From Caviibacter abscessus (GTDB lineage: Bacteria > Fusobacteriota > Fusobacteriia > Fusobacteriales > Leptotrichiaceae), in the NCBI RefSeq assembly GCF_001517835.1, contig NZ_LOQG01000011.1, forward strand, positions 44,028-108,027: a stretch of 64,000 nucleotides of DNA. Reading direction: 5' to 3'. The position numbers and the translations under genes are program-made. A model generated the notes under the pieces. It ran no database searches and was not told where the DNA came from. It was given only the letters and a program-made list of their open reading frames with translations. This document shows, in pieces, positions 61,985-63,879 of this stretch; the stretch's first letter is position 1, and the number at the start of each line of letters is the position of its first letter.

Positions 61985-62953
61985 TTATTTTTTCTTAATC
62001 TGTATGTATCTACAAACTTGCATCACGTTTGTTTTTCTTGCTTTTCTAACTTTATTAGTTTTCTTTTTAGCTTTTTTCTTAATAGGTGTTTTAGGCATTT
62101 GTTTTGGTGTTTGCTTCGGTGCTTCTTCTTTTGGTTTTACTGGCACTTTAACAAATTTTTCTACTACTTTTTCAACCTCTACTATTTTTTCAACTACTCT
62201 TTCTCCACATTTTGGACAATTTTGAATTTGCGGTTTATTAAAATCATTTGTATCTAATCTTAAGCCTAGTCTTATACCAACTTTGTGGTGGAAATAATGT
62301 GATGTATACTTTAATTCTTGTTGTCTTGATGATGAAGCAGGTATTTCTATTGACGCTAAATATCTACCCATATCTTGTTGTTGTTTTATTTTTGTTTTAG
62401 GAAAATATTTACCATCGTATAATATTTCAGCTAAGAAATATTTATAGTCTAATCCAAATCCTAAACCATAATAAATACCACTAGTATTTTTAAATCTATT
62501 TGCATAATATGGTTTCCCTCCATTATTATATACTTCTCTTGCAACTGCATATCCAGCTCTGCCAAATGTATAAAGATTTAAACCACTATTATGTTTATAG
62601 AAATTGTATTTTAATGTTGCATAAATTGGTATCATTGTTACTGAATAATTTTTCTGCGTATTTAAATTTCTATATTTTAATGTTGTTTCCCCAAAGTTGT
62701 ATTCAATACCTGCTCCTAGTTTAAGTTTTCTATCTAAAAAATGCATTGGATAAATTTCAGCACCTATTACAAAACCTCTACTATATGGAACATCTACTAC
62801 ATCTGGATCTTTATGCATTATTTTTTTTCTTTCAGATTTTACATTTGTACTATTTCTAAAAAAATCATATCCAACCTTTATATTAGCCTCAAAATCGTAC
62901 GACATCGCACTAATACTGGCTAAAGTCATAATTCCTAAAATAATCTTCTTCAT
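61985..62953 (-). CDS. outer-membrane beta-barrel-like protein with a Cys/Lys/Pro-rich repetitive C-terminal tail (paralogue 1)
   Basis: Has a signal peptide and an approximately 200-aa beta-rich domain. The tail reads NCPKCGE + (VEKxV)n + a K/P-rich basic segment + C..IKKK. It is co-transcribed with paralogue 2, and AGGAG lies 5 nt before the ATG. Confidence 0.55.
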   Translation of the reverse strand: MKKIILGIMTLASISAMSYDFEANIKVGYDFFRNSTNVKSERKKIMHKDPDVVDVPYSRGFVIGAEIYPMHFLDRKLKLGAGIEYNFGETTLKYRNLNTQKNYSVTMIPIYATLKYNFYKHNSGLNLYTFGRAGYAVAREVYNNGGKPYYANRFKNTSGIYYGLGFGLDYKYFLAEILYDGKYFPKTKIKQQQDMGRYLASIEIPASSSRQQELKYTSHYFHHKVGIRLGLRLDTNDFNKPQIQNCPKCGERVVEKIVEVEKVVEKFVKVPVKPKEEAPKQTPKQMPKTPIKKKAKKKTNKVRKARKTNVMQVCRYIQIKKK

Positions 62954-62988
62954 TTTTTCTCCTATATAAAATAAATTAAGATAAAAAT

Positions 62989-63879
62989 TTACTTTTTCTT
63001 AATTGGTACGTATTCACAAATTTTAATTACATTTGTTTTTCTTGGTTTTTTAATTTTATTTTTATTCTTTTTAAGTTGTTTTTTTATATATACTTGTTTT
63101 GGTGTTTCTTCTTTAGTTTGCTCAATAGGTATTTCAACAATTTTTTCTACTATTTTTTCAACCTTAACGATTTTTTCAACTACCTTTTCTTCACATTTTA
63201 TACAATTTTGAATTTGCGGTTTATTAAAGTCACTTGTATCTAATCTTAAACCTAATCTTATACCAGCTTTATGATGAAAATAGTGTGATGTGTAATCTTT
63301 TGGTGCTGCTTTAGGTAAAACCAATGGTAAATCTTTAGGTAACCTTGTTCTAGAGTAATATTTTCCATCGTATAAAATTTCTGCTAAGAAATATTTATAA
63401 TCTAGCCCAAACCCTAAACCATAGTAAACACCTCCTGTATTTTTTAAATTATTCCAACGTTGATTAGTTTTTTCTTTTGCAAAAGCATATCCAATTCTTC
63501 CAAACGTGTAAAGATTTAAACCACTCTTGTGTTTATATAAATTATATTTTAATGTTGCATAAATTGGTGCCATTGTTGCTTGGTAATTTTTATTTGACTT
63601 TAAATTTTTATATCTTAATGTTGTTTCTCCAAAATTATACTCAATACCAGCACCTAGTTTAAGTTTTTTATCTAAAAAGTGTAGTGGATAAACTTCAGCA
63701 CCAATTACAAATCCTCTGTCATATGGAAATGACTGTCTAACTCCTAGACTATCTTTTTTATTTTTTATGTTTGTACCATATCTAAAAAAGTCATATCCAA
63801 CTTTTATATTTGTCTCAAAGTCGTATGACATAGTAACAATACATATTAAGGTCATCAATCCTAAAATAATTTTTTTCAT
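62989..63879 (-). CDS. outer-membrane beta-barrel-like protein with a Cys/Lys-rich repetitive tail (paralogue 2, promoter-proximal)
   Basis: About 65% identical to paralogue 1, with the same architecture (NCIKCEE + VEKIV repeats + basic tail + C..IKKK). Confidence 0.55.
   Translation of the reverse strand: MKKIILGLMTLICIVTMSYDFETNIKVGYDFFRYGTNIKNKKDSLGVRQSFPYDRGFVIGAEVYPLHFLDKKLKLGAGIEYNFGETTLRYKNLKSNKNYQATMAPIYATLKYNLYKHKSGLNLYTFGRIGYAFAKEKTNQRWNNLKNTGGVYYGLGFGLDYKYFLAEILYDGKYYSRTRLPKDLPLVLPKAAPKDYTSHYFHHKAGIRLGLRLDTSDFNKPQIQNCIKCEEKVVEKIVKVEKIVEKIVEIPIEQTKEETPKQVYIKKQLKKNKNKIKKPRKTNVIKICEYVPIKKK

What the first reader, a model, noticed from the sequence alone, without database searches (positions are those of the whole stretch)
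61985..63879. Tandem paralogous OMP-like proteins with an unusual CxxC + (VEKIV)n + poly-Lys/Pro + terminal-Cys tail
The two adjacent genes are about 65% identical. Each encodes a signal peptide and an approximately 200-aa beta-rich domain (YDFExNIKVGYDFF...YYGLGFGLDYKYFLAEILYDGKY), followed by a conserved NC(P/I)KC(G/E)E motif. This is followed by repeats of V-E-K-I/V-V, then a strongly basic Lys/Pro-rich segment, and a final conserved Cys five residues from the C-terminus (VCRYIQIKKK / ICEYVPIKKK). Three conserved Cys residues in a CxxC...C arrangement suggest metal binding or a disulfide. The basic tail could bind peptidoglycan or nucleic acid, or host anionic surfaces. I do not recognise the architecture as a named family. 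Together with the poly-G promoter it looks like a variable surface module.
Basis: seen in the sequence. Interest (0 to 1): 0.58.

Follow-up and report, generated by a model that had tools for sequence, protein, structure and literature searches.

The report
OmpA-like barrels with polycationic periplasmic tails
Two neighbouring genes of the guinea-pig pathogen Caviibacter abscessus encode small outer-membrane barrels with highly variable surface loops, driven by a promoter containing a slippery G-run; where related bacteria carry a cell-wall-binding domain, these carry a conserved, disordered, lysine-rich, three-cysteine tail of unknown function that probably faces the cell wall.

Summary
Two minus-strand genes (62989-63879, 296 aa; 61985-62953, 322 aa) are 62% identical. 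Each has a signal peptide, a barrel, and a CxxC, VEKIV repeats, Lys/Pro-rich tail with a late Cys. The source is Caviibacter abscessus (Leptotrichiaceae).

AlphaFold gives a confident 8-stranded barrel, and Foldseek matches it to OmpA, NspA, Ail, OpcA, OmpX and OmpW. The tail is predicted disordered.

Distant homologues in Sneathia and Oceanivirga have the same barrel, hinge and VEK-type repeat linker, followed by an OmpA_C peptidoglycan-binding domain. The tail therefore most likely lies in the periplasm and has replaced that domain.

Predicted surface loops are hypervariable (22-29% identity). Membrane strands (78-93%) and tail (58-88%) are conserved.

A near-consensus promoter has a G9 tract inside its 16-nt spacer. 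Another strain has G11 (17-nt spacer) and a third, frameshifted gene copy.

My reading is a phase-variable, antigenically variable small-OMP operon whose tail is a polycationic cell-wall-facing anchor or spacer. The tail's function is inferred, not shown. The barrel, variable loops and promoter switch are known kinds; the tail architecture is an undescribed variant.

The parts
63933..63938 (-). -35 hexamer TTGACT of the operon promoter
   Evidence: Consensus scan: TTGACT-16 nt-TATAAT, 11 of 12 matches, the best site in the region. The sequence was read directly.
63918..63926 (-). G9 homopolymer inside the promoter spacer; candidate slipped-strand switch of promoter strength
   Evidence: It is the only G/C run of 7 or more in the 64-kb window. 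The tract is G11 in strain 1510011837, giving a 17-nt spacer. It is G9 again in an independent Logan assembly that encodes an identical protein.
63911..63916 (-). -10 hexamer TATAAT
63891..63895 (-). Shine-Dalgarno AGGAG, 11 nt before the ATG of the first gene
   Evidence: Read from the sequence.
62989..63879 (-). Promoter-proximal gene (296 aa, = P0003): signal peptide (about residues 1-18), 8-stranded barrel (about 19-214; 63238-63825), periplasmic tail (215-296; 62992-63237) with C226, C229 and C288
   Evidence: Cys codons were verified on the sequence: 63202-63204, 63193-63195 and 63016-63018.
62954..62988 (-). 35-nt intergenic spacer with AGGAGA before the second ATG; no promoter-like or terminator-like site, so the two genes are probably co-transcribed
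61985..62953 (-). Promoter-distal gene (322 aa, = P0001, named 'porin family protein' by NCBI)
62252..62899 (-). Mature barrel of the 322-aa protein (residues 19-234). Strands: 22-41, 51-72, 77-96, 103-120, 125-142, 154-170, 173-189, 215-234. Long external loops: about 42-50, 89-102, 143-158, 190-214. Short periplasmic turns: 73-76, 121-124, 171-172.
   Evidence: AlphaFold2 model m6e2481126c9f, Foldseek against PDB, and indels and low identity confined to the loops.
62201..62251 (-). Hinge TNDFNKPQIQN plus CxxC (C246 at 62216-62218, C249 at 62207-62209)
   Evidence: P241 is nearly invariant across tail-type and OmpA_C-type homologues.
62138..62200 (-). (V/I)EK(I/V/F)V repeat spacer (residues 252-272)
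   Evidence: It is homologous to the (VEKIVEKPV)n linker of the Sneathia OmpA-type protein.
62018..62137 (-). Lys/Pro-rich polycationic segment (residues 273-312)
   Evidence: The net charge of the whole tail is +19.
61988..62017 (-). C-terminal motif VCRYIQIKKK (C314 at 62012-62014)
61897..61934 (-). 13-bp hairpin followed by a U-run; probable intrinsic terminator of the two-gene operon, upstream of the asnS promoter-like site
   Evidence: RNA fold, centroid -11.7 kcal/mol. The consensus terminator scan did not report it.

Best explanation
This is a two-gene operon of paralogous small outer-membrane proteins of Caviibacter abscessus.

Each protein has an 8-stranded OmpA/OmpX-type barrel. Its four long external loops are hypervariable and act as surface antigen or ligand-binding faces. 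Expression is probably tuned or switched by slippage of a G-tract that sets the -35/-10 spacing of the single promoter. Recombination between the tandem copies reshuffles loops and copy number.

Behind the barrel, an 80-86-residue intrinsically disordered tail hangs into the periplasm. It consists of a hinge, a CxxC, a VEKIV spacer, a poly-Lys/Pro segment and a Cys-containing end. It occupies the place of the OmpA_C peptidoglycan-binding domain found on the homologous barrel in Sneathia and Oceanivirga.

I infer that it keeps an envelope-linking role. The VEK repeats would act as an extended spacer and the polycationic segment would bind the anionic cell wall non-covalently. The three conserved cysteines would lock or cross-link tails by disulfide or metal.

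Shown: the gene structure, the barrel fold, homology to OmpA-type proteins, the loop/strand/tail conservation pattern, and the G-tract position and its polymorphism.

Inferred: the periplasmic location of the tail (from topology and homology), cell-wall binding, the role of the Cys residues, and actual phase variation.
For: Barrel:
- AlphaFold2 gives 8 strands, short turns on the side of the termini and long loops on the other side, with block pLDDT 80-98 in the strands.
- Foldseek hits are OmpA, NspA, Ail, OpcA, OmpX, OmpW and OprG, E 3e-8 to 1e-4.
- PF13505 or PF13568 match 24 of 71 family members.

Homology and topology:
- phmmer hits at E 1e-11 to 5e-16 are 380-420-aa proteins with PF00691 OmpA_C. 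They have the same barrel, the same hinge and a (VEKIVEKPV)n linker.
- These proteins are located in Sneathia sanguinegens and Oceanivirga miroungae genomes.
- OmpA-domain proteins are described as the only known OM tether in Fusobacteria (bioRxiv 10.1101/2021.05.31.446380).

Tail under purifying selection:
- Between the 322-aa protein and its closest counterpart in the other strain (P0002), identity is 93% in strands, 29% in loops and 88% in the tail. Between paralogues it is 78%, 25% and 60%.
- Across 28 variants from an uncultured Leptotrichiaceae lineage it is 91%, 61% and 92%.
- Cys positions are conserved in 28 of 32 distinct tails.

Disorder and spacer character:
- Tail pLDDT is below 50 in two runs, with no secondary structure.
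- VEKIVEV repeats recur as spacers in unrelated proteins.
- Repeat number varies: Sneathia proteins range from 379 to 420 aa and differ in repeat number where I compared them (P0050, P0058, P0066), and tail-type proteins carry 3 to about 7 units.

Promoter switch:
- G9 lies inside a 16-nt spacer of an 11/12 consensus promoter. The other strain has G11 and a 17-nt spacer.
- The same layout controls tp0126 (an OmpW homologue) in Treponema pallidum and porA in Neisseria meningitidis (PMC7864442).

Locus plasticity:
- The other strain has three copies, one of them frameshifted in a T-tract. The window's distal gene aligns partly with that strain's copy B and over its whole length with copy C.
- The related uncultured lineage has four tandem paralogues, including one barrel-only copy.
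Against: - No experiment or computation here shows that the tail binds peptidoglycan or anything else.
- No structured domain is predicted, and a disordered polycation could bind many polyanions, such as phospholipid head groups, LPS or DNA.
- I could not establish whether C. abscessus also keeps a canonical barrel-OmpA_C protein. At least one OmpA_C domain exists next door, on a trimeric autotransporter, so the tail need not be the tether.
- The tail-type loci are not syntenic with the Sneathia ompA locus. They are paralogues rather than positional orthologues.
- Phase variation rests on two alleles from three assemblies, G9 twice and G11 once. Both give spacers (16 and 17 nt) compatible with an active promoter. 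No within-population length heterogeneity was seen.
- An odd number of Cys, and unknown periplasmic redox chemistry in this organism, leave their role open.
Confidence: 0.5

Rival explanations
1. The tail is a covalent, Braun-lipoprotein-like anchor. [quoted passage not shown]
For: - The proteins end in ...IKKK...TIYKK or ...CTYKK.
- Dickeya Lpp and OutB end in VRTYKK and VRTTKK. There, a C-terminal Lys is necessary and sufficient and the box tolerates substitutions (PMC12274547).
- Beta-barrel OMPs are covalently attached to peptidoglycan in other phyla (PMC12729407).
- The tail is long enough to reach the wall.
Against: - C-terminal Lys carries no information in this genome. 26 of 52 ORFs in the window end in K and 8 of 52 end in KK.
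- Two full-length tail variants end in N (P0002) or R (P0035).
The rest of the genome could not be searched.
- Known barrel attachments use N-terminal residues, not a C-terminal Lys.
Confidence: 0.08
2. The cysteines are the point. Tails cross-link to each other or to other envelope proteins by disulfides, or share a metal ion. This would build a periplasmic protein mesh under the outer membrane, analogous to the chlamydial cysteine-rich outer-membrane complex.
For: - Three Cys are conserved at fixed positions while the barrel has none.
- Three thiols per chain allow network formation.
- Sub-threshold zinc-ribbon-like matches are triggered by the CxxC.
- OmpA-type relatives have a different conserved Cys pair (Cx6C) at the start of OmpA_C.
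Against: - No fold brings the Cys residues together in either AlphaFold run.
- Zinc-ribbon matches are far below the cut-offs.
- Some family members keep only one Cys or none: P0035, P0048, P0047 and P0049.
- The comparison with Chlamydia comes from general knowledge and was not tested here.
Confidence: 0.2
3. The tail is surface-exposed and binds host polyanions such as heparan sulphate or DNA.
For: - It has a strong positive charge.
- Structural neighbours Ail and OpcA are heparin/proteoglycan-binding adhesins.
- The genes sit beside autotransporter adhesin genes.
Against: - An 8-stranded barrel places both termini in the periplasm and has no lumen able to pass a chain.
- The same hinge and linker lead to a periplasmic OmpA_C domain in homologues.
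- The tail is as conserved as the membrane strands while the true surface loops are hypervariable. That is the opposite of what is expected for an exposed segment.
Confidence: 0.05
4. The tail is a functionless remnant, left when an OmpA-type gene lost its OmpA_C domain. Only the barrel matters.
For: - Barrel-only paralogues exist in the same arrays: 191 aa in the uncultured lineage and 182 aa in Oceanivirga.
- The late motif C-R-Y-I-Q-I-K loosely resembles C-V-I-H-G-F-K at the start of OmpA_C. This is my by-eye comparison and is not significant.
Against: - The tail is conserved at 88-92% where loops are 29-61%.
- The reading frame, the Cys positions and the charge are kept across lineages whose tails are 31-60% identical.
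Confidence: 0.07

Closest known systems
OmpA-family proteins of Leptotrichiaceae (Sneathia sanguinegens 421-aa protein, L009 2989-4254; Oceanivirga miroungae 443-aa protein, L008 2977-4308)
   Same: - Homologous 8-stranded barrel (E 1e-11 to 5e-16; 30-34% identity by BLASTP, 39% over strands and turns).
- Same hinge (KPxI/V).
- Same VEK-type repeat linker, variable in repeat number.
- Periplasmic C-terminal extension.
   Different: The OmpA_C peptidoglycan-binding domain (PF00691) is absent. It is replaced by a CxxC before the repeats, a 40-50-residue polycationic disordered segment and a Cys-containing end. The genes are tandemly multiplied and are not at the ompA locus.
Small variable OMPs of host-adapted pathogens: Neisseria Opa, NspA, OpcA; Yersinia Ail; E. 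coli OmpX
   Same: - Small outer-membrane beta-barrel fold, with Foldseek hits to NspA, Ail, OpcA and OmpX.
- Hypervariable external loops on a conserved scaffold.
- Multiple paralogues and stochastic expression control.
   Different: - No detectable sequence similarity.
- Those proteins have no periplasmic tail.
- Opa genes switch by CTCTT repeats inside the coding region, not by a promoter tract (general knowledge).
Promoter-spacer homopolymer switches: N. meningitidis porA (poly-G between -35 and -10), T. pallidum tp0126 (an OmpW homologue; poly-G between -35 and -10)
   Same: A G-tract lies between near-consensus -35 and -10 hexamers of an OMP gene, and tract length sets the spacer to 16 or 17 nt (PMC7864442).
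   Different: Length change within a population and its effect on transcription have not been measured here. Only two alleles were seen.
Braun lipoprotein Lpp / Dickeya OutB 'Lpp box'
   Same: A periplasmic extension from a membrane anchor ending in Lys-Lys. The endings TIYKK and IKKK resemble VRTYKK.
   Different: - A barrel anchor rather than a lipid anchor.
- No coiled coil.
- C-terminal Lys is the default in this AT-rich genome (50% of ORFs).
- No L,D-transpeptidase has been identified.
TonB proline-rich spacer / titin PEVK-type segments (general knowledge)
   Same: A Glu/Lys/Val/Pro-rich, acid-then-basic, non-globular segment suited to spanning the periplasm.
   Different: It is anchored in the outer membrane, not the inner membrane. 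There is no C-terminal globular domain and no sequence homology.

Membership tests
OmpA family (Pfam PF00691, OmpA_C-like peptidoglycan-binding domain) | Presence of the OmpA_C domain | tested here: not met
   No PF00691 hit in either window protein, even at E up to 1. 21 of the 71 proteins in alignment A2 (the OmpA-type distant homologues) do have it.
OmpA family (barrel part) | 8-stranded N-terminal membrane barrel homologous to that of OmpA_C-bearing proteins | tested here: met
   phmmer E 5e-16 to 1e-11 to PF00691-containing proteins, matching over the barrel and linker. The AlphaFold model has 8 strands, and the best Foldseek hit is E. coli OmpA at E 2.9e-8.
OMP_b-brl / OMP_b-brl_2 (PF13505, PF13568; MBB clan) | Match to the Pfam profile above the gathering score | tested here: inconclusive
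   The window proteins have no hit at E up to 1. 20 and 4 of 71 family members match at E up to 0.01, best 1e-6.
TDE1717 family outer membrane beta-barrel protein (NCBIfam NF049866) | Score at or above the curated cut-off of 135 bits | tested here: not met
   17.0 and 19.5 bits.
Promoter-spacer homopolymer phase variation (porA / tp0126 type) | [quoted passage not shown] | tested here: met
   TTGACT-TTTTTC-G9-A-TATAAT.
Promoter-spacer homopolymer phase variation (porA / tp0126 type) | Tract length varies between or within isolates | tested here: met
   G9 in the window and in Logan SRR29904084, versus G11 in GCA_001517865.1. This shows between-strain variation only; within-population variation was not testable.
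Promoter-spacer homopolymer phase variation (porA / tp0126 type) | Tract length changes transcription | not testable with these tools
   Needs reporter fusions or RNA measurements.
Braun-lipoprotein-like covalent peptidoglycan anchors | C-terminal Lys | tested here: inconclusive
   Present in both window proteins. However, 50% of the window's ORFs end in K, and P0002 and P0035 end in N and R.
Braun-lipoprotein-like covalent peptidoglycan anchors | N-terminal lipobox Cys (lipid anchor) | tested here: not met
   The signal peptides MKKIILGIMTLASISAMS and MKKIILGLMTLICIVTMS precede the barrel directly. The first has no Cys, and the Cys in the second (LICIVTMS) is not in lipobox context.
Braun-lipoprotein-like covalent peptidoglycan anchors | Cognate YkuD-type L,D-transpeptidase in the genome | not testable with these tools
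   Only about 87 kb of C. abscessus DNA (about 128 kb in all) was available, and it holds no SxGC[IV]R[ML] motif.
Zinc ribbon (for example PF13695, TIGR02605) | Two Cys/His knuckles (four ligands) and a profile match above cut-off | tested here: not met
   Only three Cys. E-values are 0.076-0.13, well below the cut-offs. No predicted fold.

The most novel reading that the evidence does not exclude
The polycationic three-Cys tail is a previously unrecognised kind of outer-membrane-to-cell-wall tether in Fusobacteriota. In this reading a disordered, OmpA_C-replacing anchor holds the wall by multivalent charge, is locked by disulfide or metal, or is even attached covalently through its terminal Lys. 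That would add a tethering principle in a phylum thought to rely on OmpA domains only.
Probability: 0.15. Interest if true: 0.7.

Novelty: new variant of a known kind. Interest (0 to 1): 0.42.

Why it matters
How diderm bacteria fasten the outer membrane to the wall is a live question. Fusobacteria are reported to have only OmpA-domain tethers.

Here an OmpA-type barrel has exchanged its folded peptidoglycan-binding domain for a conserved disordered polycation with fixed cysteines. If that tail binds the wall, it shows that a tether can be built without a folded binding domain.

On the practical side, these proteins are probably dominant variable surface antigens of Caviibacter and of related uncultured Leptotrichiaceae from animal microbiomes. 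The conserved barrel strands and tail, set against the hypervariable loops, matter for serology and typing.

The promoter G-tract adds Leptotrichiaceae to the groups that use spacer-length switches for OMP genes.

Tried and rejected
- **Family searches on the two proteins.** Pfam and NCBIfam gave nothing above cut-off. A profile search of PDB sequences gave no hit at E up to 1.
- **Tail-only phmmer against 1.84 billion representatives.** It found only the paralogue P0003. It also missed the known tails of the uncultured lineage, so it is insensitive. It is weak evidence that the tail occurs nowhere else.
- **Tail profile search.** The candidate list was swamped by unrelated VEKIVEV-repeat proteins: ZapA-like, alveolin-like and others. 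The only hits carrying the basic/Cys part were a pseudogene fragment (P0204) and a chimeric 117-aa ORF (P0205).
- **AlphaFold on the tail alone, with a tail-only alignment.** pLDDT 47 and no structure. The idea of a compact zinc-ribbon-like fold was dropped.
- **Does C. abscessus keep a canonical barrel-OmpA_C protein?** A search with the Sneathia protein returned 1170 hits with no organism names, and the cluster look-up gave no names either. This is unresolved.
- **Genome scan with the family profile.** It returned only three loci and not C. abscessus itself.
- **Search for an L,D-transpeptidase motif in held DNA.** None found, but only about 87 kb of it is C. abscessus (about 7% of the genome).
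- **C-terminal Lys as an Lpp-like clue.** Rejected as uninformative after finding that half of all ORFs in the window end in Lys.
- **P0005, the truncated homologue of a third assembly.** It could not be located on a contig.
- **Rfam and tRNA scans of the window.** Both empty.
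Full report
**What is there**

The window's right end carries two minus-strand ORFs, 62989..63879 (296 aa) and 61985..62953 (322 aa), separated by 35 nt. They are 62% identical over their full length (E 4e-134).

Both are exact matches to Caviibacter abscessus proteins. One is named 'porin family protein' and the other 'hypothetical protein'. 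The window is therefore from this 1.22-Mb guinea-pig pathogen of the Leptotrichiaceae (PMC5093955).

The only correction is that the last Cys is ninth from the C-terminus, not fifth.

No Pfam or NCBIfam family reaches its cut-off. The best are sub-threshold hits to a spirochaete OM-barrel family (17-19.5 bits against a cut-off of 135) and to zinc-ribbon models triggered by the CxxC.

**The barrel**

I predicted the structure with AlphaFold2 on a 71-sequence alignment. It gives eight long antiparallel strands with block pLDDT 80-98 and three short turns on the side of the termini. Four long loops lie on the other side, at residues about 42-50, 89-102, 143-158 and 190-214 of the 322-aa protein.

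Foldseek against the PDB returns E. coli OmpA, NspA, Ail, OpcA, OmpX, OmpW and OprG, with E 3e-8 to 1e-4 and TM-score up to 0.6 on the target.

PF13505 or PF13568 match 24 of the 71 family members.

**What the tail is attached to in relatives**

The homology search splits into two groups:
- About 49 'tail-type' proteins. They come from C. abscessus and from an uncultured Leptotrichiaceae lineage seen in many metagenomes.
- About 20 longer proteins (363-420 aa) carrying Pfam OmpA_C.

The longer proteins have the same barrel, the same post-barrel hinge (a nearly invariant Pro) and a (VEKIVEKPV)n repeat linker. A Cx6C motif and the OmpA_C peptidoglycan-binding domain follow.

A genome scan places them in Sneathia sanguinegens and Oceanivirga miroungae. 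In Oceanivirga the linker is (VVAPVVEE)n. In the Sneathia proteins I compared (P0050, P0058, P0066), the length differences lie in the number of repeat units; the set as a whole ranges from 379 to 420 aa.

Because OmpA_C is periplasmic and an even-stranded barrel returns its C-terminus to the periplasm, the Caviibacter tail is most probably periplasmic as well. Architecturally it replaces OmpA_C.

The tail-type loci are not syntenic with the Sneathia ompA locus. They are paralogues, not positional orthologues. I could not determine whether C. abscessus also keeps a canonical barrel-OmpA_C gene.

**Conservation pattern**

I used the model's topology to split the alignment into strands plus turns, external loops and tail.

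| Comparison | Strands + turns | External loops | Tail |
|---|---|---|---|
| 322-aa protein vs its closest counterpart in strain 1510011837 (P0002) | 93% | 29% | 88% |
| 322-aa protein vs its neighbour paralogue | 78% | 25% | 60% |
| 28 variants of the uncultured lineage, mean pairwise | 91% | 61% (minimum 16%) | 92% |

All indels fall in the four loops.

The surface loops therefore diversify while the tail is held as tightly as the membrane strands. This argues against a remnant and against host exposure.

The barrel has no Cys, and the genome-wide Cys frequency in the window is 0.63%. The CxxC and the late Cys are nevertheless kept at aligned positions in 28 of 32 distinct tails. Net tail charge is +12 to +19.

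**Nature of the tail**

AlphaFold gives pLDDT below 50 and no secondary structure for residues 250-322 in the full-length run. A tail-only run gives mean pLDDT 47.

The VEKIVEV repeat is a generic spacer. It triggers the alveolin repeat family PF12314 in 19 family members. It also recurs between domains of unrelated ZapA-like and membrane-anchored proteins.

The basic/Cys part was found only in this family. Both searches are insensitive for such low-complexity sequence, so this is weak evidence.

**Promoter and locus dynamics**

Upstream of the first gene lies TTGACT(63938-63933)-TTTTTC-G9(63926-63918)-A-TATAAT(63916-63911). This matches the consensus at 11 of 12 positions with a 16-nt spacer. 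G9 is the only G/C run of 7 or more in the 64-kb window.

- Strain 1510011837 has G11 and a 17-nt spacer.
- An independent Logan assembly encoding the identical protein again has G9.
- The uncultured lineage has a clean 17-nt spacer with no G-tract.

This layout is the one shown experimentally to control tp0126, an OmpW homologue of Treponema pallidum, and porA of Neisseria meningitidis (PMC7864442).

There is no promoter or terminator between the two genes. A 13-bp hairpin plus U-run follows the second gene. Together these suggest a two-gene operon.

Strain 1510011837 has three tandem copies, and the third is broken by a 1-nt deletion in a T-tract. The window's distal gene aligns with copy B in its 5' part and with copy C over its whole length. 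The uncultured lineage has four tandem copies, the first being barrel-only. Copy number and mosaicism therefore vary.

**Surroundings**

Downstream genes are housekeeping: asnS, a secreted TPR protein, topA, a tyrosine recombinase and GTPases (asnS from the tRNA-synthetase domains in the syntenic locus).

By synteny with strain 1510011837, and from the Logan contig, the upstream neighbours lie just beyond the window's end. They are a trimeric autotransporter carrying a periplasmic OmpA_C domain and an S8-protease autotransporter. The operon thus sits in a cluster of surface-protein genes.

**Mechanism**

The best-supported reading is a phase-variable, antigenically variable pair of small OMPs. 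Their periplasmic tail would act as a spacer (VEK repeats) plus a polycationic wall-binding segment, stabilised or cross-linked through its cysteines. It would retain in a different form the envelope-linking job of OmpA_C, the only tether type known in Fusobacteria.

Only the architecture, homology, conservation and promoter anatomy are shown. Binding, topology and switching are inferred.

The attractive Lpp-like covalent model draws on the endings TIYKK and IKKK resembling the Dickeya Lpp box VRTYKK. It loses most of its support for three reasons:
- Half of all ORFs in this AT-rich window end in Lys.
- Two variants end in N or R.
- No L,D-transpeptidase could be looked for genome-wide.

A disulfide- or metal-linked mesh remains a live rival. 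Surface exposure and 'functionless remnant' are unlikely.

**Verdict**

The barrel, the variable loops, the tandem paralogy and the G-tract promoter are new members of well-known kinds. The conserved disordered CxxC/VEK/poly-Lys/Cys tail in place of OmpA_C is an undescribed variant. It is confined, as far as I could see, to Caviibacter and one related uncultured lineage.

Interest is moderate. It would rise substantially if the tail proved to be a new type of wall tether.

Noticed in passing
L001 4504-5784 (C. abscessus strain 1510011837, immediately upstream of the operon; the same gene end is in L010 3-212, so it lies just beyond window position 64000): A 426-aa trimeric autotransporter (YadA_stalk + YadA_anchor) with a periplasmic OmpA_C domain after the anchor. 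A 2026 preprint (10.64898/2026.01.22.700529) reports this TAA+OmpA combination only for Streptobacillus among Fusobacteriia.
   Followed up: partly
L001 8045-8972: A third tandem copy of the barrel-tail gene in the other strain, split into 37-, 80- and 103-aa ORFs. One break is a 1-nt deletion in a T7 tract. The 234-aa P0005 of a third assembly starts right after an A8 tract (window 62821-62828). Homopolymer tracts inside the coding sequence may therefore also inactivate copies.
   Followed up: partly
L002 5408-8807 and L007 2408-5843 (uncultured Leptotrichiaceae): An array of four tandem paralogues: one barrel-only protein (191 aa, ending exactly at the last strand) followed by three tail-bearing ones. 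The last has an extra Asp/Met/Lys-rich insert in its tail. The promoter has a 17-nt spacer with no G-tract.
   Followed up: partly
Proteins P0206-P0222; Pfam PF12314 hits in 19 of 71 family members: The (V/I)EKIVEV(P) repeat recurs as a spacer in unrelated proteins: ZapA-like PF05164 proteins, a membrane-anchored protein, and alveolin-like fragments. It looks like a convergent low-complexity linker module.
   Followed up: no
P0205 (117 aa, 1285-nt ENA contig): A transaldolase-like N-terminus fused in frame to the last 53 residues of the uncultured-lineage tail. This is either an assembly chimera or a recombination product.
   Followed up: no
whole window, ORFs of at least 150 aa: 26 of 52 ORFs end in Lys and 8 end in Lys-Lys. 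This is a strong C-terminal Lys bias in this 26%-GC genome, and it makes terminal-Lys motifs uninformative.
   Followed up: yes
window 59810-60445 (-): A 211-aa TPR protein with a signal peptide, two genes downstream of the operon and conserved in the same position in the other strain. Its envelope role is unknown.
   Followed up: no
window 1-64000: No tRNA gene and no Rfam family at gathering threshold anywhere in the 64 kb.
   Followed up: yes
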